DNA of 52,063 nucleotides, taken from a virus. The notes beneath the pieces were generated by a model. It was not told the origin of the DNA and searched no databases. It was given only the letters and a program-made list of their open reading frames with translations. The translations under genes and the position numbers were made by a program. The stretch spans positions 1 through 52,063 of the IMG/VR virus record IMGVR_UViG_3300045988_076157; one strand, written 5' to 3'. Of this stretch, positions 4,368-50,145 are shown piece by piece. Numbering within the stretch: position 1 is the stretch's first letter; each line of letters begins with the position of its first letter.

Positions 4368-4401
4368 AGAAATTACCTCCTGTCTGGTATATTCTACCTC
4401 T

Positions 4402-4464: not shown

Positions 4465-4473
4465 AATTTTGGG

Positions 4474-4509
4474 CATAAAAAGAACACCACCCTGTATAGA
4501 GTGGTGTTC
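4474..4509 (-). terminator. Rho-independent terminator after the sigma-r4-like gene
   Basis: 9-bp stem GAACACCAC / GTGGTGTTC, followed by TTTTTATG on the minus strand. Confidence 0.65.
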
Positions 4510-4514
4510 CTTAT

Positions 4515-4745: not shown

Positions 4746-4827
4746 TCAAAACACCCCTTACTTGTACCGGCCACAGGTGGGGCAGCGACTCTGTCCCTTA
4801 CCTGTACTCTTGCCTCCGATACCTGTT

Positions 4828-5244
4828 TTACCCGAGGGACTCGACTTCGTCACTGAGGCTCCCTTGCTCGGGCTGTATGTTCTGGTTCTCGTTCTTGTCA
4901 CTGTTACTGTTTGCTTCGCCATAGTTTACCTCCTCAGAATTGCCTTGGACGTATTTGGCACTCTCACCAGATTGGAAAACGTTGTTACCGCTGCCCTCTC
5001 CGGTGTCTTGCTCAACTGTCGTTGTAACCATTTCAGTCGTGGTCATGTGCTTCTCGTACTGCACAAATATGGTGCAGATAACGAGGTTGACCAATATGCT
5101 GATGATGAGAATCAACCGCAGCCAGAAGTCCTCGCGCCGCTTTGATTCCAGCATGGTCATCACGATGTGGTTGAGAGCTATGCTTTGGTCAAGGGCGTCT
5201 TCTTCAGTCTTCATGGTTTCCAAGTCCTTGATAGGAATGTCCAT
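4828..5244 (-). CDS. Membrane protein with a central TM and acidic/Asn-rich tail (XhlA-like architecture, tentative)
   Basis: Start trimmed to the ATG at 5244 (GGAG 9 nt upstream). TM FWLRLILIISILVNLVICTIF. Confidence 0.6.
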   Translation of the reverse strand: MDIPIKDLETMKTEEDALDQSIALNHIVMTMLESKRREDFWLRLILIISILVNLVICTIFVQYEKHMTTTEMVTTTVEQDTGEGSGNNVFQSGESAKYVQGNSEEVNYGEANSNSDKNENQNIQPEQGSLSDEVESLG

Positions 5245-20448: not shown

Positions 20449-22047
20449 TTACAATTCTGGCAAAATTTCCATGAACACACGGATTATAGAGCTTCTGTGG
20501 CCGTCGGATTCCTCAATTTTGTTGATGCGCACTCTCGTACCCGCGTTGAGTAGTGTTTCACCCTCGCCAGTACCGAATGTAGAAATGGACATTATGGAGG
20601 AAGCTTGTGTGCCCTTGGGAGCGTAGAAAACAACCTCGACGTCCCCTCCAAACCCCTTATTCCAATCGGAAGATGTGCTCGTAAAGCCTGTATAAGTTCC
20701 AATAGTTCCCTGGAACATGTCATTCAGAGCCTGAGTAGACATGTTCTCCAGCTTAGTCATGTTCTCAAAGAAGTCACCGTCCATAAAGCCCGCCAAGTCT
20801 CCGAAGTTGGTACCTCTACGCAGTACCAAATCCTTCTCCAGAGAAGCTTTCTTCAGTGCAGATTGACACCGCTGTATATCGCCAGTGTACCAGTCACCAT
20901 ATTTATTGTCAGCAGCCTTTTTGCCCTCCCTTGCAGCGGTACGCAACCAACCATTCATCTTTGTATAGTCACTTCCTGTGTATTTTTTCAAGGAGGTCTT
21001 TTCTGCATCGGTAAAGTTCTCAAAGGCCGACTCTTCCATTTCCAGCATTCCTGACGTAGTTTGACGTTCAAACAGACTTATCCATTCCTTAGAGGAAGGA
21101 ATTTTCTGTACGTTGGTACCGGACTGTACATTGTTCTTGACTTCGGAGGCGATACCTCCCATACTCTCAATCCACTTATCCAAGGACGGGTCAGCTTTAC
21201 CCTCAACCCAGTCAGCTAACTGGTCGGCAATTTCAGTCATACTCTGCGGAATGTATGCCTCAAAGGTACACATGCCGTTAGGGTGGTCAAGAGGGAGACT
21301 GTCTTTAGGAAAGTGTTTACCATCTCGCTCCATACAGACTTCACAAGTACGATTGCCACCAGCAGACAGCCAAATGTAATCCTCAACGAAGGGATTGTTC
21401 TTGGTAGTCCGTACAAAAGCCTGTTGATAGGCGTGAGACACCATCGTACGAGCTAACCGCTGTGCATTGTAGTCTACCTTCTTGGCCGCGCCGGGGTACA
21501 CCTTAGACCAGTCCCAGTCTTTTCTTGCTTCAGGATTTAGATACTTCTCTAAATCCTTGGCTATATCATAGGCGCTCTTGTTCTCTGCTATGCCTTGTGC
21601 TATGATTGTATTTATGTTATACTGAGTCTTCATATGAGTTTTCCAAATGGCACGACTCAAACTCCACTTGCCCTCATAGAGTTGACCGGTGGATACCATT
21701 TTTACAATATCCGCTGGTACAAACCCATAAGCTCCTTGAATACCAAGACCCAGTTTGTTTACAAAGTTAGCATTATCGTCTACAACAGCTTGAGCTGCTG
21801 CTTTCATGTTACTCTTGATTTCTCCATTGAGGGACATCTCTGCTTTCTTTAGTTCTTTGTTGATTTCCTTTTGGAGATCCTCAAGGTATTGTTTGTAAAG
21901 CGGAGAAGAGGGTGTCTTAGGCAGATTCTTAGCTTTCTTAGCAACAGCCTTAGAAGCGTTTTTGTAGATGTCTACAATATGTTTCTGCTGTTGTTGAGTC
22001 AGCTTAACTCTCTCCTGTTCTGCTATATTCAAGCTGAATTTTGCCAT
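20449..22047 (-). CDS. Minor head protein (Phage_Mu_F / SPP1 gp7-like) fused to a C-terminal ADP-ribosyltransferase toxin domain
   Basis: MuF motif ...NRTCEVCMERDGKHFPKDSLPLDHPNGMCTFEAYIP. C-terminal R-S-E ART triad: YTGSDYTKMNGWLR, LVLRRG, GFTSTS and GEGETLL (ExE). Confidence 0.9.
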   Translation of the reverse strand: MAKFSLNIAEQERVKLTQQQQKHIVDIYKNASKAVAKKAKNLPKTPSSPLYKQYLEDLQKEINKELKKAEMSLNGEIKSNMKAAAQAVVDDNANFVNKLGLGIQGAYGFVPADIVKMVSTGQLYEGKWSLSRAIWKTHMKTQYNINTIIAQGIAENKSAYDIAKDLEKYLNPEARKDWDWSKVYPGAAKKVDYNAQRLARTMVSHAYQQAFVRTTKNNPFVEDYIWLSAGGNRTCEVCMERDGKHFPKDSLPLDHPNGMCTFEAYIPQSMTEIADQLADWVEGKADPSLDKWIESMGGIASEVKNNVQSGTNVQKIPSSKEWISLFERQTTSGMLEMEESAFENFTDAEKTSLKKYTGSDYTKMNGWLRTAAREGKKAADNKYGDWYTGDIQRCQSALKKASLEKDLVLRRGTNFGDLAGFMDGDFFENMTKLENMSTQALNDMFQGTIGTYTGFTSTSSDWNKGFGGDVEVVFYAPKGTQASSIMSISTFGTGEGETLLNAGTRVRINKIEESDGHRSSIIRVFMEILPEL

Positions 22048-22063
22048 AAGACACCCTCCTCAA

Positions 22064-23257
22064 TCACTTGGTCCCTTTTACCAGGAACGCTTCGGGATAC
22101 GTTTTCTGTACTTCCTTCAAGTATGCATCTGCATTGGCCTTAACGCTGAATGCGCCAAGTTGAATTCTGTAGATAGTGTTGCTCGTGACAGGCTTCACCA
22201 TTTCCTTGAAGGCGACGCCCAGGTAGTTACAGATACCCTTGGCAATGGTCTCACCGATGAGCTCGGTATTGTTAATGATCCACTGTGCCACTTCTGGCTC
22301 ATCATGGAAATCAACCTCAACATACGCCGTAGGAGCTGCGGGGGTCTTCACCTCAAAGAGGTTCGGATTGGCCTTGATGTTCTCGCTCTTGCCAGGGGTG
22401 AGAGGAGCTAGCACATCAAAGATGGCTTTGGCTGCTTTGTAACCCTCGCTGCTCTTGTCCATCTTGTAACAGAAGAGCCGGGTACCACTGGTTTTACCGT
22501 TGAAAGCGTTGGTATGGATAGGAACATGCAGATTTGCCTTAAAAGCATCGGAGGCTTTACAACGATTTGCCATAGTGTCATACTGACCGACCATGACCTT
22601 TACGCCACTCCGCTCCAGTGCTGTTTTGCAGGCCGCTGCAATCTTACCACACTGTACGTCCTCTGTCGTGTTTCCCACAGCGTAGGTATTGCGCCGCTGG
22701 TCAGAGGGGGACAAATACACTCTCTTTTCCATAGATTCCTCCCCTTCATAAGGTGGGTGGAAAATAGCCCATGTTCCGCTGGTGGGCATATTCCGCTTTT
22801 TATAACCAATGCCCTCAAAAGCACCGGTTCCGGCCGTGGACAACTTGGCTTTCTCAACTGTAGAGAAAACCATATTGTTACCCTCAAGCGTGATGAAGGT
22901 CGTTCCGCTGAACTTTTCATAGATGAAGAACACATGCTGATACATCCAGCGGTTTTCCTTCTTGTTGTACTCACAGTAGAAAGCAATGTCGCCTTTCTGA
23001 GCTTTGCTGTTGTCCTTAAGACGCCAGCCTTTAGCAGTGAGCCATTCACCGAGGGCACGACACCAAGCGGGATTGGAACACCCATCTAATAGATAGGGCT
23101 TTCCACTCAATCGATCAGCATACCATACGGTATACCCACAGTATGCTGCTCCGATAGCATTCCAGTACTTGTTTACTGTAGTGTTGTTTCCAGAACCAGT
23201 TTCTTGTTCACCTGCCAGCTTCTCTACAGGAGCCAGCATTTGAGATACAGTCTTCAT
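22064..23257 (-). CDS. Endolysin: CHAP-like peptidase + Amidase_3 (N-acetylmuramoyl-L-alanine amidase) + SPOR domain
   Basis: CHAP signatures YCGYTVWY, QHVFFIY and LEGNN. Amidase_3 block ...LHVPIHTNAFNG...VEVDFHD. C-terminal IYRIQLGAFSVKANADAYLKEV matches the SPOR pattern. Confidence 0.85.
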   Translation of the reverse strand: MKTVSQMLAPVEKLAGEQETGSGNNTTVNKYWNAIGAAYCGYTVWYADRLSGKPYLLDGCSNPAWCRALGEWLTAKGWRLKDNSKAQKGDIAFYCEYNKKENRWMYQHVFFIYEKFSGTTFITLEGNNMVFSTVEKAKLSTAGTGAFEGIGYKKRNMPTSGTWAIFHPPYEGEESMEKRVYLSPSDQRRNTYAVGNTTEDVQCGKIAAACKTALERSGVKVMVGQYDTMANRCKASDAFKANLHVPIHTNAFNGKTSGTRLFCYKMDKSSEGYKAAKAIFDVLAPLTPGKSENIKANPNLFEVKTPAAPTAYVEVDFHDEPEVAQWIINNTELIGETIAKGICNYLGVAFKEMVKPVTSNTIYRIQLGAFSVKANADAYLKEVQKTYPEAFLVKGTK

Positions 23258-33969: not shown

Positions 33970-34623
33970 ATGACTGACATGAACAAGATCACCGACAAGA
34001 TCCAGAAGTTGCTCAATCTGGCGGGCAACAATCCTAACGAGGAGGAGGCTCAGGCCGCTCTCCTCAAGGCTCAAGAGCTCATGGCTCAGTACAACCTCGA
34101 CAGGGAGTCTTTGGGTGACAAGGAGAAAATCAAGTACTCCTTCGAAATCTCCAATGTCAAGGCCAATCCCAGAGCAAGACGATTGCTCAGCATCATCGCT
34201 GAGGCTTTCGCTTGTAATCCCCTGATCTCCGCAGATCACAAGTGCGGCTTCTTTGGCCGAGAGGACAATGCCAAAGCTGCCAAGGAATGTATGCAGTTTA
34301 TTCACCGTACGATGGAGCGTGGCATGAACCGTGTGTGCAAAGAGCACGGTCTTAAGTCTACAGCTGTTGCAGGTGCTTCTGATATCTACAACGGTTATGC
34401 AGCCGGATTCCTGTCCGGTCTTAAGGAGGTTGTAGATGCTCAGACTGTGGCCTTGGCTGTGGTTGTAACTCAGGATGTGAAGGACGCCTATGCTGCCCGT
34501 TTCCCCAATCTGGGTACATTCAAGGGCAAGACTACTACATGGAATCATGCGTACAAGGACGCCTATCAGTCCGGTGTAACAGATGGACGTTCCGCCATGG
34601 GGAAGAGATCCTTGAAGGCATAA
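33970..34623 (+). CDS. DUF2786-type protein (N-terminal KIQKLLNLA...NEEEAQAALLKAQELM motif)
   Basis: Characteristic N-terminal helix pair of DUF2786 proteins, common in phage and plasmid replication regions. Confidence 0.7.
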   Translation: MTDMNKITDKIQKLLNLAGNNPNEEEAQAALLKAQELMAQYNLDRESLGDKEKIKYSFEISNVKANPRARRLLSIIAEAFACNPLISADHKCGFFGREDNAKAAKECMQFIHRTMERGMNRVCKEHGLKSTAVAGASDIYNGYAAGFLSGLKEVVDAQTVALAVVVTQDVKDAYAARFPNLGTFKGKTTTWNHAYKDAYQSGVTDGRSAMGKRSLKA

Positions 34624-34766
34624 ATGAAAAGGTGTGAAAAGGGTAGGACGGAGCAAGGATAACACCGAGAATCGAAGGAATCCTTGTTCTGTTCACCCGA
34701 ATTTGTGACTTTCTTTTTTCCGTCCGAAGGAGTATACTTGGATTATACCGATTGGAGGTTTTTGCT

Positions 34767-35363
34767 ATGGATTATCAATTTTCTGTCAAAACAATGTCTG
34801 AGTCCCAGCGCATGTTGGCTCTCACAAAAGCCCTTATCATGAGTGGAGTCAGTTTGGATGTGTTTCCTTTGGCGTGGCTCAACGGCACCGATTTCTATCG
34901 TGCTCCCGCATCTAAGCACTTTCATGCTGCCTATTCTGGAGGCCTGTTTGAGCACAGCCTGAATGTAACAGTGAAGTTACTTCAGTTCACCGAAGCCGGT
35001 CTGTGTTCTCCCTGGGGTAGACCCGAAAGCCCCATCATTATTGGTATGCTTCATGACACCACAAAGATCAACCGTTACAAAGCGTACCAGGACATGAACA
35101 CAGTCACTCAGGAAATGGAGACCTTCTACCAGGACAATCCTGAGTATGAGAATCTCGGCGGTCACGGTAACGATTCTGTTCTCAAGCTCAAGAAGGTCAT
35201 GGATCTCATTGAAGAAGAGGAACTGTGTATCAGGTACCACATGGGCGCTTATGAGACAGAGGATTGGGACGGCTTTGATAAAGCTATTCGGAAGTTCCCA
35301 AATGTGCTCTTCACCCACACAGCTGACATGTATGCTTCTAAGTGCATGGAGGTGACTCCATGA
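34767..35363 (+). CDS. HD-domain phosphohydrolase
   Basis: HFHAAYSGGLFEHSL ... MLHDTTK ... GHGNDS fits the HD-superfamily metal-binding pattern. ATG at 34767 after GGAGG. Confidence 0.7.
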   Translation: MDYQFSVKTMSESQRMLALTKALIMSGVSLDVFPLAWLNGTDFYRAPASKHFHAAYSGGLFEHSLNVTVKLLQFTEAGLCSPWGRPESPIIIGMLHDTTKINRYKAYQDMNTVTQEMETFYQDNPEYENLGGHGNDSVLKLKKVMDLIEEEELCIRYHMGAYETEDWDGFDKAIRKFPNVLFTHTADMYASKCMEVTP

Positions 35364-36376
35364 GGAACAAGCCTAAGGATGTTCCATACTGTGGTGTGAG
35401 AAAGGACAGAATTCTCAAAGGAGAGCCTGTGGTAGATCCTGAGATACTCCGGTATCTGTATCAGTTTATTGTAAGACGATACAAGATCCATCTGCGGAAA
35501 GATGTTCAGGGTTTGCCTTCTCCTTGGACAAAGGATCCTGTATTACAAGAATACAGGTTCACCAACGTGAGACGAGAACATGACAGAGAAACCAAGTGGC
35601 TGATCAAGAACATTACAAGCAACCCTGATCTGTCCTATCCAAACAAACTCTTGAACTGTATCTTGTTCCGGTTATACAACAAACATGAGACTTCTGAACT
35701 GATCTCTCAACCTATTCCTTTTGATAAGTATAAGTCTTCAGGGGGGTGGGATCCTGAGTGGTATCGTGCTCTGTTTGAAGCTGCCCAAGCAGAAGATTCT
35801 CACAGGGTGTTCTTCACTGGAGCATTCATTACTGGAGGACTGAAGCGAGCACTGAAATGGTATCTACCCAAGGATGATCCTAAAAACAGCATGGAAATGA
35901 GAATGTTGTGGTTTATGAAAGTCCTCATAGACGATAATGTTGTCAGCAAGATCAAGTCTGCAGTTAACCAAAAAGAGGTGTTCAAAACTCTATGCAGCTA
36001 TGACGGACTTGGGGAGCTTCTGTCTTATCAGATCTTTGTAGATATGACTTACATAGAAGAGTTTCCTTTCAGCGAAAATGAGTTTACTGTAGCAGGTCCT
36101 GGTTGTAAGATAGGACTGAGATTTCTGTTTAAAGACACAGATGGTATGACCCCAGAAGAATGTTTGTTCTGGTTGAGAGATAACCTTGAGTCTATCTTCA
36201 AAAACAAGACCAAGGGGAAATTCAGCTGCGAAGCTCTCTTTACAGATTTGCCTGAGTATGATCGCTGTTTTAATGTCATGAGCTTGGAGAACTGTTTCTG
36301 TGAGTTGAGTAAATATGTGAGAGCTACTAAAGGAACAGGCAGACCCAGAAAGAGATACAAGGAGGTACATGAATGA
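35360..36376 (+). CDS. Helical DNA base-hypermodification-type protein (resembles the 5-hm-pyrimidine DNA kinase helical domain / aGPT-pyrophosphorylase group, tentative)
   Basis: The string PWTKDPVLQEYRFTNVRREHDRETKWL and the later GLGELLSYQIFVDMTY...FTVAGPGCKIGLRFLF recall that group. No P-loop. ATGA overlap with the HD gene. Confidence 0.4.
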   Translation: MRNKPKDVPYCGVRKDRILKGEPVVDPEILRYLYQFIVRRYKIHLRKDVQGLPSPWTKDPVLQEYRFTNVRREHDRETKWLIKNITSNPDLSYPNKLLNCILFRLYNKHETSELISQPIPFDKYKSSGGWDPEWYRALFEAAQAEDSHRVFFTGAFITGGLKRALKWYLPKDDPKNSMEMRMLWFMKVLIDDNVVSKIKSAVNQKEVFKTLCSYDGLGELLSYQIFVDMTYIEEFPFSENEFTVAGPGCKIGLRFLFKDTDGMTPEECLFWLRDNLESIFKNKTKGKFSCEALFTDLPEYDRCFNVMSLENCFCELSKYVRATKGTGRPRKRYKEVHE

Positions 36377-36963
36377 AAACAAGAAATGAGATGAGACGAG
36401 ACAGAACCTTAGCTTGGTTGGTAGTGATTTGCATAATTTTGGTTGCGATTTCAGGAGTAAGTTTGGCGTGCTCTCTTTGGGAAAGCCATAAGAACAATCA
36501 GCCTTTAGATAGAGAGTCTAAGACTGTGTATTCTGAAATAGGAACTCCTCTACGAATTGTCCCCCCTCCCAAGATCATTCTCAGCCCTGATACATCTACT
36601 CCTCAAGCTCCAGAATACGATTATGACTATGTATGTCGTGTAGTTATGGCTGAGACCGGCGGAGAATATAATGAAGATCTGACTCTGGCCGTCTGTCAGG
36701 CTATTATGAATGCGGCTACAGAAAACGATTGGACTCCTGAGGAAGTCTGTATCAATTACAAGTACACAGGACCTCATGACTATGTGAGTGATTTCATACA
36801 AGATATCTGTGACAGAATCTTCCTCTATGGAGAAGTCTATGAGGACTCAGGGAATGCCCAAGTTTTCTACAACCCTTCATATGGACATAGCAGCTATCAT
36901 GAGAGTCAAATCTTTGTGTGTGAGATTGGTGGAGTTCGTTTCTTTGAAAGGGTGGCTGTATGA
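36373..36963 (+). CDS. Membrane-anchored SleB/CwlJ-family cell wall hydrolase (Hydrolase_2)
   Basis: N-terminal TM LAWLVVICIILVAISGVSLA. Catalytic-domain pattern VCRVVMAETGGE...LAVCQAIMNA...QVFYNPS...EIGGVRFF parallels SleB (ARLVYSEARGE...VAAVVLNR...FYNP...IGNHVF). Confidence 0.7.
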   Translation: MKTRNEMRRDRTLAWLVVICIILVAISGVSLACSLWESHKNNQPLDRESKTVYSEIGTPLRIVPPPKIILSPDTSTPQAPEYDYDYVCRVVMAETGGEYNEDLTLAVCQAIMNAATENDWTPEEVCINYKYTGPHDYVSDFIQDICDRIFLYGEVYEDSGNAQVFYNPSYGHSSYHESQIFVCEIGGVRFFERVAV

Positions 36964-37781
36964 TACCTGTATTTGTTCCATCCTACAAGCGTCCCAAGGC
37001 TACCTTACTTGTTCGTTCACTGAACTGGGACTTTCCTCTGTATGTATTTGTACGCAAAGAGGAACTTGAGGACTATTCTTGGATAAAGAAACGTCCTAAT
37101 ACCAAGCTGATAACTTTGAAAAATGTACACGACATCGGTGAGACTCGAGCAGCAATGTTACGATATGCTTCAGTACATGGCATCCCTCGGGTGTTCATGT
37201 TGGATGATGACGTTACACGATTAGATCTGTCCGTATGGGACGAGGAGCGCCGGGTAGTGCGTGCCTCTGGTACGGTACGAGGGTGTCCTGAAAACTGGCA
37301 GGTCGTTCTTGCAGAGTGGGAAAGCTTGTGGGGAGATGAAGCCCTATTTGGTGCTTCTTACAGACCATTCAGTTGGAGCATAAAGAAAAATGCACTCAAT
37401 ACCAATCGGCGTGTTCAACTTCAACAAGCTGTAGGTGTGAATGTGGAGCGCATTGTAGCTGAGGGACTCCGATACTACAGCAATAAAGATGTAGGCAATG
37501 AAGACCTGTTCTTACAACTAGAATGCTATCAACAGGGACTTGAGTGTGTACAGACTCCGATGATACAGTATGATTGTCCCGCTATGGGTGCTGGGAAAGG
37601 AGGCTGTAATGCTTCCGAACTTGGCTCAATTGCTGAGAAGCAACATCGACGCGTGAGGAAATTCCTGAAGGCTTGTGGTAATGACCCCGCAGTCCGTGTA
37701 TCAACTACTCGAAGTGGAGTAGAAAGCATAAAGTTCAACTGGAAAGTGATTGACAAATTGATGGGAGGATCCTATGAGTAA
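36960..37781 (+). CDS. GT-A-like glycosyltransferase (TET/JBP-associated TAGT-like, tentative)
   Basis: IPVFVPSYKRP N-terminus and MLDDDV (DxD) motif. Embedded among nucleotide-modification genes. Confidence 0.45.
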   Translation: MIPVFVPSYKRPKATLLVRSLNWDFPLYVFVRKEELEDYSWIKKRPNTKLITLKNVHDIGETRAAMLRYASVHGIPRVFMLDDDVTRLDLSVWDEERRVVRASGTVRGCPENWQVVLAEWESLWGDEALFGASYRPFSWSIKKNALNTNRRVQLQQAVGVNVERIVAEGLRYYSNKDVGNEDLFLQLECYQQGLECVQTPMIQYDCPAMGAGKGGCNASELGSIAEKQHRRVRKFLKACGNDPAVRVSTTRSGVESIKFNWKVIDKLMGGSYE

Positions 37782-38250
37782 CAAAAGTTGGTTAGATATG
37801 GCCGAAATGTATGCGAAACAGCACAGTGGCTGTAACAAGGTGGCTGTGGGTTGTGCTATTGTATCTTTGACTAGCAACAACGTCTTGGCTTTTGGAGCTA
37901 ACAAAGCCATGCCTGATCTGTGCAAATCCCCCAGGGGTTGTTTGAGGGTTGAGCTGTATGGAGACGACAGCAAGAACCACCGGAACTCTGGTGATTGCCG
38001 AGCTATTCATAGTGAGATTGATGCAATTGCTTCTGCAGCTCGCTATGGGATTTCCTTGAATCGATCCGTGGCATATGTTACACGTTATCCCTGCGAGAGC
38101 TGTGCCAAAGCTTTGATCCAGGCTGGCATCTATGAGGTGTACTATGGAGGTACAGCTGAGATCAGTGATTACACCAGAGCGCTCTTTGAACGATACAATG
38201 TAAGATGTTACCATGTCACAGATTGGCGTGAGGATCTGTCTGACCGATAA
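37774..38250 (+). CDS. dCMP deaminase (ComEB/cytidine-deoxycytidylate deaminase family)
   Basis: Zinc motifs HSEIDAI (HxE) and PCESCAKAL (PCxxC). Confidence 0.85.
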   Translation: MSNKSWLDMAEMYAKQHSGCNKVAVGCAIVSLTSNNVLAFGANKAMPDLCKSPRGCLRVELYGDDSKNHRNSGDCRAIHSEIDAIASAARYGISLNRSVAYVTRYPCESCAKALIQAGIYEVYYGGTAEISDYTRALFERYNVRCYHVTDWREDLSDR

Positions 38251-38262
38251 GGAGGGTTGATT

Positions 38263-38766
38263 ATGGAATACGTTGGGTTGAGTCAAGCTCAGTTGGACAT
38301 TTTGGCAAAGGCTAGAAGCACATACGGTGCTACTGCACAGATCCTTGTATCTAATGAGGAACTCTGTGAGCTGGCTGCGGTGTGTGCTAAGTTCCCTCGC
38401 TATGAGTCTCCTGAGAAAGCTAGGGAGGAGCTCTATGACCGAGCTGTGGATGAGGTAGCAGATGTGATTATCGTTTTGGATCACATCGTGAGCATCTTCG
38501 ATATCAAAGCTGAAGACATGAGAACTCGTATTTCCGGGAAGATTGGTCGTCTGGCCTATTGGCTGAGTCAATCTGAGTCTATGGAAGAGACTACTCTCTA
38601 TCGAGACATACCTTCTACTGATCCAAATCAACTGTCCCTGTTTGATAACCTTGGTTGTCCTTGCGTTGGCTGTAGTTACTACAAGAACTTCCTGGAACTG
38701 AAGATCGGGGGGAAGTGCTATGAATGCCGAGGGACTGGCAAAAACTTCAATCCAAGGGAGGACTAA
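38263..38766 (+). CDS. MazG-like nucleotide pyrophosphohydrolase with a C-terminal Cys cluster
   Basis: LVSNEELCELAAV...DEVADVIIVLDHI fits the MazG EExxE/D...ADV pattern. C-terminus CPCVGC...CYECRGTG. Confidence 0.7.
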   Translation: MEYVGLSQAQLDILAKARSTYGATAQILVSNEELCELAAVCAKFPRYESPEKAREELYDRAVDEVADVIIVLDHIVSIFDIKAEDMRTRISGKIGRLAYWLSQSESMEETTLYRDIPSTDPNQLSLFDNLGCPCVGCSYYKNFLELKIGGKCYECRGTGKNFNPRED

Positions 38767-44091: not shown

Positions 44092-44167
44092 GGGACATTA
44101 GCTCAGTTGGTAGAGCATCTGGCTCATAACCGGGTGGCCACGGGTTCAAGTCCCTTATGTCCCACCA
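44092..44167 (+). tRNA. tRNA with anticodon CAU (elongator Met, or Ile2 if lysidine-modified), CCA encoded
   Basis: Manual cloverleaf: acceptor GGGACAT/ATGTCCC, D-arm GCTC-AGTTGGTA-GAGC, anticodon loop CTCATAA (CAT at 44125-44127), T-loop TTCAAGT, 3' ACCA. One C-T mismatch in the T-stem. The G1-C72 pair argues against an initiator tRNA. Confidence 0.85.
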
Positions 44168-46779: not shown

Positions 46780-46794
46780 AGATAGGAGATGATT

Positions 46795-47733
46795 ATGCTA
46801 TATGACTACAGCATTCCAGGAGACTGCAAAGAGCTAAGAAGATCTATTTTCACAGAGCTGATGACTCCCGATACAAAAACTGGATACATGGACGGGGAAG
46901 ACTATCAACTCATGAGACCATACGCAAAGGAACGAGCACTTGATCTTGAATCCTGTCTATGGCTGGCCTTTCTGTATGGTATTTCCTACTCATGTACAAC
47001 CACAATGCGGTTTCTTGAAGAATTCCCCACTATTGCAGATGTAACTCCTAAACGAGTCAACGCATTTTGGAAAGACAAGAAAGAATCCCTTTGGTTTAAT
47101 CCCGACAAGAAGTACCTCAAAAACAACGATCAAGTTATACCGGCCATTCGGTCTATCTGTGAATTGTCCCATAAAAACTTGAGTGACTACCTTTGCCCAT
47201 TGTTAGAGCAAGGATTTGATGTTACATACAAGGAAATTACCAAGCGTTGGCGTTTCTTTGGTCCCCATGGAGCATACTTGTTCTTTGATGCCCTGTACGG
47301 TATGCAACCAAGCTGGTATTCTGATCCTGAACACCTGGATTGGAAAAACTGTGGTCAAACTGTTGTGGAAGGTATGGCTCATCTACTTTGTGATGATGAA
47401 GCTATACAAACCAAACAATACAACCTGGAACGATACAATCGAATGCTGGATAAACTGGCCAACAGATTCCATAAACCTAAGATTGTCTTGGAGTCCAATC
47501 TTTGTTTCTTCCGCAAGCTGTTCAAGGGTTCCCGATATTTGGGCTATTATGCAGACCGCAACCTGATGGAGTGTCATGCTACAGCTGACATACTGAGGGA
47601 AGATTGTGGAATAGATGTTTGGAAACTGCGCAAAAAGACTACTCAGGATGATCTACGTGGAGAGATACATGGTTGGGACGCCATACGCAAAGAAAGGTTG
47701 AAATTGTTTTTGACTACAGGAGCTCTATCATGA
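46795..47733 (+). CDS. Helical protein, second candidate DNA base-hypermodification enzyme (aGPT-pyrophosphorylase / glycosylase-like, tentative)
   Basis: WRFFGPHGAYLFFDALYGM...NCGQTVVEGMAHLL resembles the G.G.f.a.q...D..y...GPG...G pattern also present in 35360-36376. ATGA-coupled to the P-loop kinase. Confidence 0.35.
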   Translation: MLYDYSIPGDCKELRRSIFTELMTPDTKTGYMDGEDYQLMRPYAKERALDLESCLWLAFLYGISYSCTTTMRFLEEFPTIADVTPKRVNAFWKDKKESLWFNPDKKYLKNNDQVIPAIRSICELSHKNLSDYLCPLLEQGFDVTYKEITKRWRFFGPHGAYLFFDALYGMQPSWYSDPEHLDWKNCGQTVVEGMAHLLCDDEAIQTKQYNLERYNRMLDKLANRFHKPKIVLESNLCFFRKLFKGSRYLGYYADRNLMECHATADILREDCGIDVWKLRKKTTQDDLRGEIHGWDAIRKERLKLFLTTGALS

Positions 47734-48320
47734 GACTTCTTATCAATATCCGAGGATGCAATGGTGCTGGTAAATCTACCATCCCCATGTCTATGCTAGA
47801 TGATCCAGAGATGTTTATTGAAGAGCTCAAGTACAGTGATGGCAAAAGGATCGGTGCATTCACTGTATTCCCATCCTATGGTTGGGTTGCTCTAGGAACC
47901 TATTTCAACAAGACCGGAGGGCTTGATGGTATTCGCAACATGGAATGTACCAAGACCACCCTCTATGCAGCCTTGGGTCTCTACCCTGACTATGATATCC
48001 TCATGGAAGGGATCCTCTGTAGTACAGTGTTCTCTAGCTATTCTGACCTGTTTCACGAGATAGAGAATCAGACCGGCAGACAGATAATGATTCTATCCCT
48101 TCTTCCGCCCCTCGAGGTCTGTCTAGAGCGCATTCAAACTCGGAATGGAGGTAAACCCATTAAAGAAGACCTCGTGGCAGGAAAGCGAAGTTCTGTGGCA
48201 AGGAGCCACGAAAAGTTCAAGCAAGAAGGATTCACATGTATAAAGGTAGACTCTTCCCGAGTCCCTAGAGAAAGAATGCTCAAAGCATTTCTTCAAACTG
48301 TGGAAAAACATCGGAGGTAA
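47730..48320 (+). CDS. P-loop kinase (nucleotide or DNA 5-hydroxymethyl-pyrimidine kinase candidate)
   Basis: Walker A GCNGAGKST near the N-terminus, 196 aa. Context between hypermodification-type genes. Confidence 0.6.
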   Translation: MRLLINIRGCNGAGKSTIPMSMLDDPEMFIEELKYSDGKRIGAFTVFPSYGWVALGTYFNKTGGLDGIRNMECTKTTLYAALGLYPDYDILMEGILCSTVFSSYSDLFHEIENQTGRQIMILSLLPPLEVCLERIQTRNGGKPIKEDLVAGKRSSVARSHEKFKQEGFTCIKVDSSRVPRERMLKAFLQTVEKHRR

Positions 48321-48322
48321 CT

Positions 48323-48658
48323 ATGGACCAGAAAATGGAAATTCATCAGCATCTCTGTGAGAAGATGCATGACCTGTATGAGCGTAAAAACGCTGACTAT
48401 GGGGATAGCTTTGCTCAGCTCCGCAAGCGATATCCAAACTTCGTGTGTATGCGGCTGTTTGACAAGTTAAACCGACTTGACACCATCATCCAGCCGGGGT
48501 ATGAGTGTAAGGTGTCTGACGAGAAGATTGAGGACACCCTGATGGATATTGCCAACTATGCGATCATGGAGCTGACTGAACGCATCGCTGACAGAAATCC
48601 CCCTATATCTGCAAGCAACCTGTATGCAACTTCTATTGATGCAAAGGAGGTACACTAA
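48323..48658 (+). CDS. DUF1599 (nucleotide modification associated domain 1, MazG-related) protein
   Basis: KNADYGDSF...MRLFDKLNRLDTI...EDTLMDIANYAIM fits the DUF1599 pattern. Confidence 0.7.
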   Translation: MDQKMEIHQHLCEKMHDLYERKNADYGDSFAQLRKRYPNFVCMRLFDKLNRLDTIIQPGYECKVSDEKIEDTLMDIANYAIMELTERIADRNPPISASNLYATSIDAKEVH

Positions 48659-48659
48659 C

Positions 48660-49388
48660 ATGTCTGTATTCATTTTCAATGCACAAACGGTAAATGATGC
48701 TTGGGAGCAGGCATTCGGCGCTCTGGCGATCCAGGCTTCTGAGGGCTTTGCTGACACTTCCCGTGATGGCGGAGTGGTTGGTGAGATCACTGATGCTGTT
48801 TTCTGTATCAAGGATCCTACTCGCAACATTGTGACCAGTCCGATCCGAAAGATGCCCTTGCGCTATGCTGTCGGAGAGTTGGCTTGGTATCTGTCCGGTT
48901 CCAACAAGGTCTCTGATATCAGTCGGTTTGCTAAGAAGTGGGTTGACATCTCTGATGATGGTGAAACCAATAACTCTGCTTATGGGTATCGTATCTTCAC
49001 CAAGTTTGGGTTTGATCAGTGGGAGTATGTGAAGTCTCTCCTGATGAAAGACCCCAATTCTCGTCAGGCAGTCATTCACATCAAGAATGCTGATGATACA
49101 CCCACCAAGGACACTCCCTGCACGGTGTATCTCCAGTTCTTCATCCGCGATGGCAAGTTGAATCTGTCGGTACATATGCGATCCAACGATATTTGGATGG
49201 GTGTGCCTTATGACATGTTCAGCTTTTGCTTCCTGCAGATGAAGATGGCTATGGAGTTAGGTGTTGAGATCGGTGAATACCACCACTACGCTGGGTCTCT
49301 GCACATGTATGCTCGAGATTGGGAGACTGCTCAGAAAACTGTGGGTAGTTGTTCCTGCAAGAAGCTCAAGCGTGAAGGAGTGAACTGA
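48660..49388 (+). CDS. ThyA-fold deoxypyrimidylate C5-(hydroxy)methylase, T4 gp42-like, Asp at the base-specificity position
   Basis: Catalytic Cys154 in TPCTVYLQF. MRSNDIWMGVPYDMF aligns ungapped with E. coli [15 protein letters not shown], so N177 corresponds to Asp185 (GAC at 49212-49214). NSAYGY, DPNSRQ and GSLHMY strings resemble T4 dCMP hydroxymethylase. Confidence 0.8.
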   Translation: MSVFIFNAQTVNDAWEQAFGALAIQASEGFADTSRDGGVVGEITDAVFCIKDPTRNIVTSPIRKMPLRYAVGELAWYLSGSNKVSDISRFAKKWVDISDDGETNNSAYGYRIFTKFGFDQWEYVKSLLMKDPNSRQAVIHIKNADDTPTKDTPCTVYLQFFIRDGKLNLSVHMRSNDIWMGVPYDMFSFCFLQMKMAMELGVEIGEYHHYAGSLHMYARDWETAQKTVGSCSCKKLKREGVN

Positions 49389-49762
49389 TGTCATACAACA
49401 GGGTCACCAAAGGACCTGAGCTCATCAAGGTGATGGTCAAAATTCTTGATGAGAATAAGGACGTTCTGGTATGGGATCACTTCTGCTATGCTCCGAAAGA
49501 CCTGTACCTCAAGTTCCTGGAAAACCGAGGTATTGAGAGATTTGAACTGGCAGAGTACCTTCAGCGGTGGTGCCTGTTAGACTTCAATTGCGACTTACCT
49601 ATGACCAGAGCTCAGGACATGACTGTGCTCAAAGAACTGATAATGGACAAATACTCCAAGATCTTCCCGTATCTGTCTCGCCCCAGCACTACAGACAGAC
49701 AGGGTTGGTGTAGAGTTTGGTTGTCCGAACATATGGAAAGAGAAATGAGGAAAAAGAAATGA
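49388..49762 (+). CDS. Hypothetical protein (124 aa)
   Basis: ORF track entry, coupled to both neighbours. Confidence 0.65.
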   Translation: MSYNRVTKGPELIKVMVKILDENKDVLVWDHFCYAPKDLYLKFLENRGIERFELAEYLQRWCLLDFNCDLPMTRAQDMTVLKELIMDKYSKIFPYLSRPSTTDRQGWCRVWLSEHMEREMRKKK

Positions 49763-50145
49763 TTGATAAGACTACTTATGATGAGGATACTTTGTTCCCC
49801 CAGATTGCCGCAGTGGACTTTGACGGTCTGCTTGTAGAAAACAAGTTCCCGGAGATCGGTGAGATCCGTCAGCCCATGTTTGATGCTGTAAAGCAACTTC
49901 AGCAGAATGGTTGGAAGATCATTCTGTGGAGCTGTCGTACTGACGAGATGTTGGCCGAGGCTGTTGCTTTCTGCACGAATCATGGTCTTGTTCCTGATGC
50001 CGTGAATGAAAATCTCAAGGAAGTACAGAAGTATTTCGGTGGAGATACTCGTAAAGTATTTGCCAACATCTATCTGGATGACCGGAGTGCGAACTACCGG
50101 AGCGACCTTGGAGTATTCGCAACTATCCCGCCGGAGACTCTGTAG
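49759..50145 (+). CDS. HAD-superfamily phosphatase (nucleotidase-like)
   Basis: AAVDFDGLL (DxD nucleophile motif) near the N-terminus. 128 aa. Confidence 0.6.
   Translation: MIDKTTYDEDTLFPQIAAVDFDGLLVENKFPEIGEIRQPMFDAVKQLQQNGWKIILWSCRTDEMLAEAVAFCTNHGLVPDAVNENLKEVQKYFGGDTRKVFANIYLDDRSANYRSDLGVFATIPPETL

What the first reader, a model, noticed from the sequence alone, without database searches (positions are those of the whole stretch)
34767..38766. Nucleotide/DNA-modification block 1: HD hydrolase, helical hypermodification-type protein, GT-A-like glycosyltransferase, dCMP deaminase and MazG
Six translationally coupled genes (ATGA/overlap junctions at 35360, 36373, 36960 and 37774) sit in one early operon. 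dCMP deaminase (HxE, PCxxC) and MazG are confidently identified. The 35360-36376 product carries PWTKDPVLQEYRFTNVRREHDRETKWL, which I associate with the helical domain of 5-hydroxymethyl-pyrimidine DNA kinases and the aGPT-pyrophosphorylase group described for thymidine-hypermodifying phages (Iyer et al. 2013; Lee et al. 2018). The 36960-37781 product has a GT-A-like IPVFVPSYKRP...MLDDDV signature reminiscent of TET/JBP-associated glycosyltransferases. Combined with block 2 and the gp42-like enzyme, this looks like a multi-step post-replicative base hypermodification (phosphorylation, substitution and/or glycosylation of a 5-hydroxymethyl pyrimidine). I do not recognise this gene combination from characterised phages.
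Basis: partly seen in the sequence, partly recalled or inferred. Interest (0 to 1): 0.7.

Follow-up and report, generated by a model that had tools for sequence, protein, structure and literature searches.

The report
Phage DNA base hypermodification gene block
This gut-type phage carries a two-part gene set for chemically decorating a pyrimidine base in its own DNA, built from known enzyme families in a combination that no studied phage has, which points to an undescribed DNA modification.

Summary
Positions 34767-38766 carry six tightly packed + strand genes. Three junctions are ATGA overlaps, one is an 8-nt overlap, and ribosome-binding sites are visible.

The 35360-36376 product is a full-length HMUDK_hel protein (E 6.5e-68). 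The 36960-37781 product is a TAGT GT-A glycosyltransferase (E 2.7e-13) with the R...DDD...ED motif. The dCMP deaminase is solid. MazG and HD are only moderately supported.

Block 1 is half of a 5-HMUDK/AADT-type hypermodification system. Block 2 (46789-50145) holds a divergent amino-acid:DNA transferase, the 5-hmdU-DNA-kinase-family kinase, DUF1599, a ThyA homologue and a HAD phosphatase.

Two features differ from the characterised thymidine pathways of M6, ViI and PaMx11.
- The ThyA homologue has the cytosine-type active site (Thr/Met/Asp, as in MilA and the RB69-like enzyme), not the Asn/Asn/Asn of dUMP hydroxymethylases.
- The TAGT gene is an accessory present in only some relatives. It was found only with cytosine-type enzymes.

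Which base is modified (hmC, hmU or both), and the final chemistry, cannot be decided in silico. I rate this a new variant of a known kind, of moderately high interest.

The parts
34767..35363 (+). HD-type metal-dependent phosphohydrolase (candidate (d)NTP/(d)NMP hydrolase). Its membership in the pathway is uncertain.
   Evidence: phrog_28876 'metal-dependent phosphohydrolase' at 1.9e-23. Pfam HD at E 0.016, below cut-off. An H..H / HD / H / D pattern is visible in the translation. A 33%-identical homologue occurs in bajarodcaudo virus 5, which lacks every other modification gene.
35360..36376 (+). HMUDK_hel protein (aGPT-Pplase 'clade 1'), a paralogue of amino-acid:DNA transferases. It has a conserved Glu-Asn-x-x-Cys motif and is probably a second Cys-dependent DNA-base transferase of unknown group specificity.
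   Evidence: PF18723 at E 6.5e-68, covering 3-275 of 281 profile positions. 27% identical to PaMx11 gp50 (E 2.6e-26). AF2 model pLDDT 91; the top three PDB hits are all PaMx11 gp46/PUGT (probability 0.91-0.97, E 0.04-0.1, TM 0.36-0.42). E310, N311, C312, C314 and E315 are invariant in 36 homologues.
36373..36963 (+). Membrane-anchored protein with a weak SleB/Hydrolase_2-like C-terminal region. Probably a passenger gene, not a nucleotide enzyme.
   Evidence: Hydrophobic N-terminal segment (residues about 14-35). Pfam Hydrolase_2 only at E 0.17. phrog_18750 (unknown function) at 5e-10. Relatives carry a Hydrolase_2 or 3D-domain gene at a different place in the block. No significant pairwise similarity to the L056 Hydrolase_2 protein.
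36960..37781 (+). TAGT-family GT-A glycosyltransferase, a predicted DNA hydroxymethyl-pyrimidine glycosyltransferase. It is an accessory gene of the system.
   Evidence: PF20691 at E 2.7e-13, above cut-off. phrog_842 at 1.7e-13. R11, D82-D84 and D182 are invariant and E181 is nearly invariant across 20 homologues; this matches the R...DDD...ED[Y/F] motif described for phage GT-A DNA glycosyltransferases and JGT (bioRxiv 10.1101/2023.12.21.572611). Present in L002-L005, L062 and L067, absent from L055, L056 and L063, and relocated next to the kinase in L020/L064.
37774..38250 (+). dCMP deaminase (zinc-dependent; HSE...PCESC).
   Evidence: PF00383 at E 6.6e-17. phrog_174 at 1.2e-28. Found in every family locus that reaches the block-1 position.
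38263..38766 (+). MazG-like all-alpha NTP pyrophosphohydrolase with a C-terminal Cys-rich (CxCxxC...CxxC) tail. It is a candidate dCTPase or dTTPase/dUTPase.
   Evidence: phrog_2245 'nucleoside triphosphate pyrophosphohydrolase' at 3.2e-11. PDB 2gta (B. subtilis YpjD) at E 0.03, aligning EELCELA/EELGELA and DEVADVIIVL/EEIGDVLFVL. No Pfam hit even at E 10. Start inferred from the RBS.
46789..47733 (+). Divergent amino-acid:DNA transferase (AADT, aGPT-Pplase2, Pfam 'ADDT'). It is the likely group-transfer enzyme of the pathway.
   Evidence: The window copy has no Pfam hit. Homologues 50-64% identical to it pass PF18724 (P0066, P0075, P0119 and P0160; E 1e-9 to 4e-6). AF2 model pLDDT 93; top PDB hit 8Z2M, PaMx11 gp46/PUGT (probability 0.97, TM 0.51/0.54). 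Invariant E235-S236-x-L238-C239 aligns with gp46 E243-T244-I-L-C247.
47673..48320 (+). P-loop kinase of the 5-hmdU DNA kinase family (5-HMUDK). The true start is probably downstream of the listed TTG.
   Evidence: PF18748 at E 5.9e-24, 85 bits against a cut-off of 27. 27% identical to PaMx11 gp49 (E 1e-10). Walker A GCNGAGKST is visible in the alignment.
48323..48658 (+). DUF1599 ('nucleotide modification associated domain 1') protein.
   Evidence: PF07659 at E 4.2e-10. In some relatives the slot between the kinase and the ThyA homologue instead holds a Thymidylate_kin-like P-loop gene and no DUF1599 gene.
48624..49388 (+). ThyA-fold pyrimidine hydroxymethylase with cytosine-type active-site residues. 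It is a predicted dCMP 5-hydroxymethylase (gp42/MilA-like specificity).
   Evidence: PF00303 at E 2.2e-27. Best PDB hit is MilA CMP hydroxymethylase (1.2e-33), against 1e-21 for thymidylate synthases. Asp at E. coli N177, Asp at L143, Asp kept at D169, Thr at H147 and Met at Q165, read with the rules stated in PMC13326640.
49388..49762 (+). Conserved small protein of unknown function that always follows the ThyA homologue.
   Evidence: No family hit. Homologues of 31-100% identity lie at the same position in family loci.
49717..50145 (+). HAD-type phosphatase (BT0820 family), a candidate dNMP nucleotidase.
   Evidence: NF046079 at E 1.6e-25, below the equivalog cut-off. phrog_1238 at 6.8e-21. 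Conserved after the ThyA homologue in all family loci.

Best explanation
Block 1 is one half of a two-block system that replaces and then decorates a pyrimidine in the phage's own DNA.

**Before replication (inferred).** The ThyA-fold enzyme (48624-49388) converts dCMP to 5-hydroxymethyl-dCMP. The MazG-like pyrophosphohydrolase, the HD hydrolase and the HAD phosphatase deplete competing canonical nucleotides and regenerate dNMP substrate. The dCMP deaminase balances the dC/dU pools and may convert part of the hm-dCMP to hm-dUMP. The phage family-A polymerase then incorporates the hydroxymethyl-pyrimidine.

**After replication (inferred by homology to M6, ViI and PaMx11).** The 5-HMUDK-family kinase phosphorylates the hydroxymethyl group in DNA. 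The AADT (46789-47733) attacks C6 with Cys239, expels phosphate and adds a small nucleophile such as an amino acid or amine. The HMUDK_hel paralogue of block 1 has the same fold and a conserved Glu-x-x-x-Cys motif, and probably performs a related but still undefined transfer. The TAGT enzyme adds a sugar to hydroxymethyl groups that remain, most likely on 5-hmC. That is the substrate shown for phage GT-A DNA glycosyltransferases of the kind TAGT belongs to, and the base that the ThyA active site predicts.

The result would be DNA carrying at least two kinds of bulky C5 adducts, which would protect it from host nucleases.

**Shown here:** gene presence, family membership, conserved catalytic motifs, conserved synteny, and the accessory status of TAGT.
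**Inferred:** every enzymatic step, the identity of the modified base, the nucleophile and the sugar.
For: **Family membership.** HMUDK_hel, TAGT and the deaminase. The kinase and ThyA homologue. The AADT through homologues that pass PF18724 and a top structural hit to PaMx11 gp46. HMUDK_hel also has gp46 as its top three structural hits.

**Catalytic motifs.** The AADT motif E-S-x-L-C and the HMUDK_hel motif E-N-C-F-C are invariant. The AADT motif aligns with gp46 E243/T244/C247. Those residues bind the metal or are the nucleophile in the crystal structure (PMC11472151).

**Same parts list as a characterised system.** PaMx11 has an AADT (gp46), kinase (gp49), HMUDK_hel-like gp50, ThyA homologue (gp51), HD protein (gp52), dCMP deaminase (gp56) and pyrophosphohydrolase (gp62).

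**Cytosine-type hydroxymethylase.** The window enzyme has the triad Thr/Met/Asp at E. coli positions 147/165/177, plus Asp143 and Asp169. MilA and the RB69-like enzyme share the triad. ViI-like, M6-like, SPO1-like and PaMx11-type enzymes all have Asn/Asn/Asn. The rules come from PMC13326640. All 30 window-family ThyA genes read (29 loci and the window) are cytosine-type.

**TAGT is tied to the pathway.**
- It is translationally coupled between HMUDK_hel and the deaminase.
- That position is conserved down to 51% identity.
- In L020/L064 a TAGT gene sits directly between the kinase and a radical-SAM gene.
- No TAGT was found in about 26 loci with Asn-type enzymes.
- Cultured Microbacterium phage Ilzat pairs a TAGT-like glycosyltransferase with a ThyA homologue that has Cys-Thr, Met-Arg and Asp at the corresponding positions (read by eye), plus a thymidylate kinase and MazG.

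**Insertion into a shared backbone.** The related bajarodcaudo virus 5 has the same replication backbone and none of these genes.
Against: - No chemistry was measured, so the modified base is inferred from a few active-site residues.
- By overall similarity the ThyA homologue is closer to dUMP hydroxymethylases (PaMx11 gp51, E 4.6e-33) than to T4-group enzymes (E about 1e-8 to 1e-11).
- The kinase and AADT families have been shown to act only on 5-hmU DNA (PMC8989533, PMC13458397).
- In PaMx11 gp46 the Glu/Thr-bound metal contacts thymine O4. The window AADT keeps Glu-Ser, which argues for a uracil-type substrate.
- The window encodes no dNMP kinase for hm-dCMP, although some relatives have a Thymidylate_kin-like gene.
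- The HMUDK_hel paralogues of M6 and ViI were not needed for product formation in vitro, so their activity is unknown.
- The structural matches have weak E-values (0.04-0.3) and modest TM-scores.
- The MazG and HD assignments are sub-threshold in Pfam.
Confidence: 0.5

Rival explanations
1. Canonical thymidine hypermodification, with thymine as the only modified base. Two routes are possible: the ThyA homologue still uses dUMP despite its Asp, or its hm-dCMP product is quantitatively deaminated to hm-dUMP by the adjacent deaminase. 5-hmU enters DNA, and the kinase and AADT act as they do in M6, ViI and PaMx11. TAGT glycosylates leftover 5-hmU (a base-J-like product) or a hydroxyl on the appended group.
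For: - Every characterised 5-HMUDK/AADT pathway acts on 5-hmU.
- The parts list equals that of PaMx11.
- The AADT keeps the Glu-Ser pair equivalent to the ligands of the O4-binding metal.
- The dCMP deaminase is found in every family locus that reaches the block-1 position, and the window copy overlaps the upstream gene by 8 nt.
- No hm-dCMP kinase is encoded in the window.
- The eukaryotic relative JGT glycosylates 5-hmU.
- From my own recollection, phage XP-12 derives dTTP by deaminating a 5-methyl-dC nucleotide, which would be a precedent for this routing.
Against: - Three base-contacting positions of the hydroxymethylase are switched together to the cytosine pattern. They stay so in all 30 family genes read and in an unrelated lineage, L048. 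That is hard to explain if dUMP were the substrate.
- The direct deaminase plus dUMP-hydroxymethylase route is what all known thymidine hypermodifiers use.
- In the loci examined, TAGT relatives occur only with cytosine-type enzymes.
Confidence: 0.3
2. The TAGT-family gene, and the membrane protein beside it, are morons unrelated to DNA. The glycosyltransferase would modify a cell-envelope polymer or a protein, as the structural relative TarP does for wall teichoic acid. It would lie in the nucleotide block only by chance of insertion.
For: - It sits next to a membrane-anchored protein with weak SleB-like features.
- It is dispensable in many relatives.
- Pyle et al. report TarP as the top solved structural relative of phage GT-A enzymes, and about 65% of their GT-containing contigs have no neighbouring base-modification gene.
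Against: - It scores above the Pfam TAGT cut-off and has the DNA-GT motif set.
- It has no signal peptide or transmembrane segment.
- When present it always lies inside one of the two modification blocks, either between HMUDK_hel and the deaminase or between the kinase and a radical-SAM gene.
- The membrane protein changes position independently of it.
Confidence: 0.07
3. The block only reshapes nucleotide pools for replication (deaminase, NTP pyrophosphohydrolase, HD hydrolase). HMUDK_hel and TAGT would be inactive relics, and virion DNA would be canonical or carry plain 5-hm-pyrimidine.
For: - The HMUDK_hel paralogues were dispensable in vitro in M6 and ViI.
- An HD homologue also occurs in a phage without modification genes.
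Against: - Candidate catalytic residues are invariant in HMUDK_hel (36 sequences), the AADT (36) and TAGT (20). That indicates purifying selection on active sites.
- The kinase and AADT are retained across the family, down to 44% and 30% identity respectively.
Confidence: 0.05

Closest known systems
Thymidine hypermodification systems of Pseudomonas phages PaMx11 and M6, Salmonella phage ViI and Acinetobacter phage SH-Ab 15599 (5-HMUDK plus AADT/aGPT-Pplase2; Lee et al. 2018 and 2021; PMC11472151; PMC13458397)
   Same: - The same enzyme families are present: 5-HMUDK kinase, AADT with the E-[ST]-x-L-C motif, the HMUDK_hel (clade 1) paralogue, a ThyA-fold hydroxymethylase, dCMP deaminase, an HD protein and a MazG-like pyrophosphohydrolase.
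- The same logic applies: hydroxymethyl-pyrimidine is built in before replication, then phosphorylated and substituted on DNA.
   Different: - The hydroxymethylase has the cytosine-type triad Thr/Met/Asp instead of Asn/Asn/Asn.
- The AADT belongs to a divergent subfamily with a C-terminal extension, shared with L048, and falls below the Pfam threshold.
- The genes are split into two blocks 8 kb apart, on either side of the replication genes.
- A TAGT glycosyltransferase, DUF1599 and a HAD phosphatase are added.
- No PLP, FAD or acetyltransferase tailoring enzymes are present in the window.
Phage GT-A (TAGT-like) DNA glycosyltransferase pathways on 5-hmC (Burke et al. 2021; Pyle et al. 2024), and T-even glucosyl-hmC
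   Same: - A TAGT-family GT-A enzyme with the R...DDD...ED motif.
- Association with a ThyA-fold enzyme and a dCMP deaminase, as noted for 'ThyS-associated' GT contigs.
- T4-like pool logic: a gp42-like hydroxymethylase, a deaminase and a pyrophosphohydrolase.
   Different: - No TET/JBP dioxygenase and no C5 methyltransferase is present.
- The glycosyltransferase is embedded in a kinase/AADT system. The papers read here do not describe that combination.
- No sugar-nucleotide tailoring genes are present.
Microbacterium phages Ilzat (Ilzatvirus) and Pajaza (Pikminvirus), cultured but with no DNA modification data found here
   Same: - Ilzat has a TAGT-like glycosyltransferase, a ThyA homologue with Cys-Thr, Met-Arg and Asp at the corresponding positions, a thymidylate kinase and MazG.
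- Pajaza has an HMUDK_hel-like protein, a ThyA homologue with the same residues and MazG.
   Different: Neither phage has the full set. Ilzat lacks HMUDK_hel and the kinase. For Pajaza no TAGT, 5-HMUDK or AADT was detected in the 13.3-kb stretch searched. Identity to the window proteins is only 23-27%.

Membership tests
5-HMUDK/AADT thymidine hypermodification system (Lee et al. 2018/2021) | A P-loop kinase of the 5-hmdU DNA kinase family | tested here: met
   Product of 47673-48320: PF18748 at E 5.9e-24, 85.1 bits against a cut-off of 27. 27% identical to PaMx11 gp49.
5-HMUDK/AADT thymidine hypermodification system (Lee et al. 2018/2021) | An amino-acid:DNA transferase (aGPT-Pplase2, PF18724) with the catalytic Cys and neighbouring Glu | tested here: met
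   The window protein 46789-47733 itself misses PF18724. Homologues 50-64% identical to it pass the threshold. The top PDB fold hit is 8Z2M at probability 0.97. E235, S236 and C239 are invariant and align with gp46 E243, T244 and C247. Membership is therefore transitive, not direct.
5-HMUDK/AADT thymidine hypermodification system (Lee et al. 2018/2021) | A source of 5-hmU: a dUMP hydroxymethylase (ThyA homologue with Asn at E. coli position 177) or a thymine dioxygenase | tested here: not met
   A ThyA homologue is present, but it has Asp177, Thr147 and Met165 (the cytosine pattern). ViI-like, M6-like, SPO1-like and PaMx11-type enzymes have Asn/Asn/Asn. No TET/JBP gene is present. 5-hmU could still arise by deamination of hm-dCMP; this was not tested.
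5-HMUDK/AADT thymidine hypermodification system (Lee et al. 2018/2021) | Hypermodified thymidine in virion DNA | not testable with these tools
   Needs nucleoside LC-MS of phage DNA. The phage is known only from metagenome contigs.
HMUDK_hel / aGPT-Pplase clade 1 (PF18723) | A full-length match to the family profile | tested here: met
   E 6.5e-68; residues 29-323 match profile positions 3-275 of 281. 36-41% identical to the Ackermannviridae (ViI-group) homologue over 95-98% of its length.
HMUDK_hel / aGPT-Pplase clade 1 (PF18723) | Co-occurrence with, or fusion to, a 5-HMUDK kinase | tested here: met
   The kinase lies in the same genome, about 11 kb downstream. In M6-like loci the two genes are adjacent. 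phrog_800 covers both halves.
TAGT (TET-associated glycosyltransferase, PF20691) | A profile match above the curated cut-off, plus the GT-A motif R...DDD...ED[Y/F] | tested here: met
   50.7 bits against 27.5. R11, D82-D84 and D182 are invariant and E181 is nearly invariant in 20 homologues. The motif is defined in the Pyle et al. preprint.
TAGT (TET-associated glycosyltransferase, PF20691) | Genomic association with a TET/JBP (5mYOX) dioxygenase | tested here: not met
   No such domain in any ORF scanned across the window. The association here is with a ThyA-fold enzyme, an arrangement Pyle et al. also report for GT-A enzymes.
TAGT (TET-associated glycosyltransferase, PF20691) | Sugar transfer to 5-hydroxymethyl-pyrimidine in DNA | not testable with these tools
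   Requires an enzyme assay on 5-hmC and 5-hmU DNA.
dCMP 5-hydroxymethylase (T4 gp42 / MilA-type specificity within the ThyA fold) | Asp at E. coli N177 (cytosine), an acidic residue at L143 (hydroxymethyl rather than methyl), and Asp kept at D169 (not a 5-hydroxy-dCMP synthase) | tested here: met
   D177, D143 and D169 in the window enzyme and in all 29 family loci with a readable ThyA gene. The rules are stated in PMC13326640. The best PDB match is MilA. Substrate use itself is untested.
MazG-like NTP pyrophosphohydrolase | A profile match and the EExxE...ExxD metal-binding motif | tested here: inconclusive
   No Pfam or NCBIfam hit. phrog_2245 at 3.2e-11. PDB YpjD at E 0.03 with the motif aligned.

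The most novel reading that the evidence does not exclude
The kinase, the AADT and the HMUDK_hel paralogue act on 5-hydroxymethylcytosine rather than 5-hydroxymethyluracil. This phage family, and independently the L048 lineage, would then make the first cytosine counterpart of the 'thymidine hypermodifications': a 5-phosphomethyl-cytosine intermediate substituted by an amino acid or amine. TAGT would add a sugar to the same hmC pool. A variant reading is that one dCMP hydroxymethylase plus the deaminase feeds both hmC and hmU into DNA, so that both pyrimidines are hypermodified by different enzymes.
Probability: 0.3. Interest if true: 0.8.

Novelty: new variant of a known kind. Interest (0 to 1): 0.62.

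Why it matters
Phage DNA hypermodifications defeat restriction enzymes and CRISPR nucleases, and they are a source of new DNA-modifying enzymes.

All kinase/AADT pathways worked out so far start from 5-hydroxymethyluracil. Here the same machinery is consistently paired with a hydroxymethylase whose active site reads as cytosine-specific. In a subset of genomes it is also paired with a DNA glycosyltransferase.

Two outcomes are possible:
- If the base is hmC, the substrate range of DNA-base kinases and amino-acid:DNA transferases extends to cytosine.
- If the route runs through deamination, it is a new way to make 5-hmU.

Either way the product (amino-acid or amine adducts together with a glycosylated base) is likely to be an undescribed modification.

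The phage family is common in metagenomes. The searches returned about 50 TAGT, 150 AADT and more than 1,000 HMUDK_hel protein clusters. It would affect how such DNA sequences and how it is restricted. It also offers a natural with/without-TAGT comparison for assigning function.

Tried and rejected
- **DNA search.** A megablast of the block against 50,697 phage records gave no match.
- **PDB by sequence.** Searches with HMUDK_hel, the AADT, the kinase and HD found nothing meaningful. A PDB search with a profile of the AADT family also found nothing.
- **Profile-profile comparison.** hhalign between the AADT and HMUDK_hel families, and between the AADT family and PaMx11/M6-type AADTs, failed; the alignments had low diversity (Neff about 2). 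The relationship therefore rests on Pfam hits of close homologues, Foldseek ranking and motif alignment.
- **Promoter and terminator scans.** They gave no more sites than shuffled sequence, so operon boundaries are not established.
- **NCBIfam.** It added only the HAD phosphatase.
- **Iyer et al. 2013.** The paper that defined these families could not be retrieved.
- **SP-15/Carin-5-type oligosaccharide thymidine modification.** Considered and rejected: it has a different gene set and no kinase/AADT.
- **5-hydroxy-dCMP synthase (RB69 type).** Rejected because Asp169 is retained.
- **dCMP methylase.** Rejected because position 143 is acidic.
- **Base specificity from the AADT motif.** I tried to read it from the metal-ligand motif. 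Glu-Ser is kept in the window and Glu-Val in L048, which is not decisive.
- **The 36373-36963 protein.** It could not be tied to the Hydrolase_2 genes of relatives by pairwise comparison.

Full report
**Observation**

The region 34767-38766 contains six + strand ORFs of 198, 338, 196, 273, 158 and about 167 codons. Read from the sequence:
- The first three junctions are ATGA start/stop overlaps, at 35360, 36373 and 36960.
- The fourth is an 8-nt overlap at 37774.
- The last two are gaps of a few bases.
- GGAGG-type ribosome-binding sites precede most starts.
- The MazG-like gene more likely starts at ATG 38263 than at the TTG listed at 38257.

There is no + strand terminator-like site between 34203 and 40800. 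The simple promoter scan finds nothing above shuffled expectation. 'One operon' is therefore plausible but not shown.

The window is essentially a whole phage genome. The minus-strand half encodes the terminase, an SPP1-type portal, the major capsid protein, tail proteins and a CHAP/Amidase_3 lysin. The + strand half encodes replication genes. A protein from the window occurs on a JGI contig of exactly 52,063 bases.

**Gene identities in block 1**

- **35360-36376.** A full-length member of Pfam HMUDK_hel (E 6.5e-68).
- **36960-37781.** A member of TAGT (E 2.7e-13, above the curated cut-off).
- **37774-38250.** A dCMP/cytidine deaminase (E 6.6e-17).
- **MazG-like gene.** It has no Pfam or NCBIfam match. 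It rests on a PHROG family (3.2e-11) and a weak match to B. subtilis YpjD that aligns the acidic motifs (E 0.03).
- **HD gene.** It is below the Pfam cut-off (E 0.016) but matches a PHROG phosphohydrolase family (1.9e-23).
- **36373-36963.** I treat it as a passenger gene.

**What HMUDK_hel is**

In Lee et al. 2018 the thymidine-hypermodifying phages carry two paralogous 'aG/PT-PPlase' genes. SP10 has one of them fused to the kinase. By homology, the window protein belongs with the HMUDK_hel-type paralogue:
- It is 36-41% identical to an Ackermannviridae (ViI-group) protein over 95-98% of its length.
- It is 27% identical to PaMx11 gp50.
- Its M6-like homologues lie immediately downstream of the kinase.
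- Some database records label these proteins 'aGPT-Pplase1'.

In the in vitro reconstitutions these paralogues were not required. The transferase that was required is the clade 2 enzyme, now called amino-acid:DNA transferase or AADT.

The AF2 model of the window protein (pLDDT 91) has PaMx11 gp46 as its top three PDB matches. Their statistics are weak (E 0.04-0.1, TM 0.36-0.42).

Its invariant segment S-L-E-N-C-F-C-E-L-S-K-Y corresponds, by inspection, to gp46 E243-T244-I-L-C247. In the crystal structure Glu243 and Thr244 hold the active-site metal and Cys247 is the nucleophile. I infer that the protein is a catalytically competent relative of AADT. Its reaction is unknown.

**Block 2 completes the system**

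- **Kinase.** 47673-48320 is a 5-hmdU-DNA-kinase-family kinase (PF18748, 85 bits).
- **ThyA homologue.** 48624-49388.
- **AADT.** The upstream ORF 46789-47733 has no Pfam hit of its own. Homologues 50-64% identical to it pass PF18724 'Amino acid:DNA transferase'. Its AF2 model (pLDDT 93) has 8Z2M, PaMx11 gp46, as top PDB hit (probability 0.97, TM 0.51-0.54). Its invariant E-S-x-L-C aligns with the gp46 catalytic motif.
- **Others.** DUF1599 (48323-48658), a conserved unknown (49388-49762) and a BT0820-type HAD phosphatase (49717-50145) follow.

PaMx11 has the same list: AADT gp46, kinase gp49, gp50, ThyA homologue gp51, HD protein gp52, dCMP deaminase gp56 and pyrophosphohydrolase gp62. The window therefore carries a system of the 5-HMUDK/AADT kind, split into two blocks that flank the primase-helicase and polymerase genes.

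The nearest deposited phage, bajarodcaudo virus 5, has a polymerase 56% identical. It shares the replication backbone and an HD homologue, but none of the other modification genes.

**The unexpected part: the hydroxymethylase reads as cytosine-specific**

PMC13326640 summarises the rules:
- The residue at E. coli ThyA N177 sets uracil (Asn) versus cytosine (Asp).
- An acidic residue at L143 goes with a hydroxymethyl product rather than a methyl product.
- D169N marks 5-hydroxy-dCMP synthases.

The window enzyme has Asp177, Asp143 and Asp169. It also has Thr at 147 and Met at 165. The Thr/Met/Asp triad is shared by MilA CMP hydroxymethylase, which is its best PDB match (E 1.2e-33; alignment). 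It is also shared by the RB69-like enzyme (L007). From my own recollection, T4 gp42 has it too.

The ViI-like, M6-like, SPO1-like and PaMx11-type enzymes all read Asn/Asn/Asn.

All 30 window-family ThyA genes read (29 loci and the window) are cytosine-type. So is an unrelated 106-kb contig, L048, in which the enzyme again sits beside an AADT and a kinase. The L048 AADT shares with the window AADT a C-terminal extension that the M6/PaMx11 enzymes lack.

By overall similarity the window enzyme is nearer to the dUMP hydroxymethylases (E 4.6e-33 to PaMx11 gp51) than to T4-group enzymes. This looks like a specificity switch inside the clade that travels with the kinase/AADT genes.

**TAGT is an accessory**

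- Relatives L055, L056 and L063 have HMUDK_hel followed directly by the deaminase, or with only a 62-codon ORF between them.
- L002-L005, L062 and L067 have TAGT between the two genes.
- L018-L021 and L064 carry a different TAGT gene (25-30% identical, PF20691 at 2e-12) directly after the kinase. In L020/L064 it is followed by a radical-SAM/SPASM gene and a Thymidylate_kin-like P-loop gene.
- When present, TAGT always lies inside one of the two modification blocks.
- R11, D82-D84 and D182 are invariant, and E181 is nearly invariant. This matches the motif described for phage GT-A DNA glycosyltransferases and trypanosome JGT.
- None of about 26 loci with Asn-type enzymes has a TAGT relative within 10 kb. 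These loci are mostly one lineage, so this is a hint, not a statistic.
- Cultured Microbacterium phage Ilzat pairs a TAGT-like gene with a ThyA homologue that has Cys-Thr, Met-Arg and Asp at the corresponding positions (read by eye), a thymidylate kinase and MazG. It lacks the kinase and HMUDK_hel.

**Mechanism**

The part I hold with high confidence (about 0.85) is that these genes make a hydroxymethyl-pyrimidine nucleotide, deplete its canonical competitor, and then modify the hydroxymethyl group on DNA by phosphorylation with substitution and, in this genome, by glycosylation.

The identity of the base is open.
- **For cytosine:** the hydroxymethylase signature, its stability across the family and in L048, the T4-like logic of the accessory genes, and the known 5-hmC substrates of phage GT-A enzymes.
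- **For uracil:** every characterised kinase and AADT acts on 5-hmU. The AADT keeps the Glu-Ser equivalent of the ligands whose metal contacts thymine O4. The deaminase is found in every family locus that reaches the block-1 position, and the window copy is coupled to the upstream gene. The window has no hm-dCMP kinase.
- **A mixed outcome** fits all the observations: hm-dCMP partly deaminated, hmC glycosylated, hmU phosphorylated and substituted.

I commit to the hmC-containing reading as the most likely (0.5, including the mixed case). The pure thymidine reading is the main rival (0.3).

**Comparison with the literature**

The papers I could read describe two kinds of pairing. Kinase/AADT clusters occur with PLP, radical-SAM, FAD, acetyltransferase, amidoligase, glutamine amidotransferase or TET/JBP partners. 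GT-A enzymes occur with 5mYOX or ThyS partners.

A full-text search for papers combining these terms with hydroxymethylcytosine or dCMP hydroxymethylase found four papers. None of those I read places an AADT/kinase pathway on cytosine or pairs it with a glycosyltransferase.

I therefore rate the finding a new variant of a known kind. Its families are all known. Its combination and predicted substrate are not.

Noticed in passing
window 46789-47733; L011 about 4000-5000: The AADT gene behaves like a swappable cassette. Contig L011 comes from the same sample series and has flanking genes 86-100% identical to the window, yet its protein at this position is only 26% identical. Other relatives range from 25% to 78%. 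This suggests exchange of the group-transfer specificity between near-identical phages.
   Followed up: partly
L020 9048-13751 (the same contig as L064): A relative carries AADT, kinase, TAGT, a radical-SAM/SPASM enzyme, a Thymidylate_kin-like P-loop protein and the cytosine-type ThyA homologue in one run. This is a richer tailoring set than the window's and probably makes a different final modification.
   Followed up: partly
L048 6728-15358 (IMGVR_UViG_3300032053_000017, a 106-kb contig): An unrelated large phage contig has this gene run: myo-inositol-1-phosphate synthase, GIY-YIG nuclease, AADT, dual-specificity phosphatase, 5-HMUDK-family kinase, C5 cytosine DNA methylase, AAA protein, cytosine-type ThyA homologue and a nucleoside 2-deoxyribosyltransferase-like protein. 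It is a second, independent pairing of kinase/AADT with a cytosine-type hydroxymethylase, possibly with an inositol-derived adduct.
   Followed up: no
window 20449-22047 (-): A head-morphogenesis (Mu F-like) protein is fused to a C-terminal ADP-ribosyltransferase exoenzyme domain (PF03496, E 1.4e-26). It could be a virion-delivered ART toxin or effector.
   Followed up: no
window 22064-23257 (-): A CHAP + Amidase_3 + SPOR lysin gene sits between the portal and the Mu F-like head gene, not in a lysis cassette. The domains point to a Gram-positive host. That is consistent with the best ThyA match, a phage of Agathobaculum butyriciproducens (59.5% identity).
   Followed up: no
window 36373-36963: A membrane-anchored protein with a faint SleB/Hydrolase_2-like motif (VVMAETGGEY) is translationally coupled inside the nucleotide block. 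Relatives carry a clear Hydrolase_2 or 3D-domain gene nearby but at other positions. Its role in an early operon is unexplained.
   Followed up: partly
window 38263-38766, C-terminal 40 residues: The MazG-like protein ends in a Cys-rich segment (CPCVGC...CYEC) that looks like a zinc ribbon. This is unusual for MazG-family enzymes.
   Followed up: no
L076 (Microbacterium phage Pajaza, record positions 34721-37510) and L075 (Ilzat, record positions 34104-36385): These cultured Microbacterium phages carry ThyA homologues with Cys-Thr, Met-Arg and Asp at the corresponding positions (read by eye). Pajaza pairs it with an HMUDK_hel-like protein whose motif reads Q-N-V-F-C. Ilzat pairs it with a TAGT-like glycosyltransferase. 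They are culturable models in which these families could be tested.
   Followed up: partly
window 44092-44167 (+): A single tRNA-Met (CAT) gene lies between the polymerase region and the PD-(D/E)XK nuclease gene.
   Followed up: no
window 33970-34623 (+): A DUF2786 + DUF7168 protein lies immediately upstream of the block and is conserved at that place in relatives. Its function is unknown.
   Followed up: no
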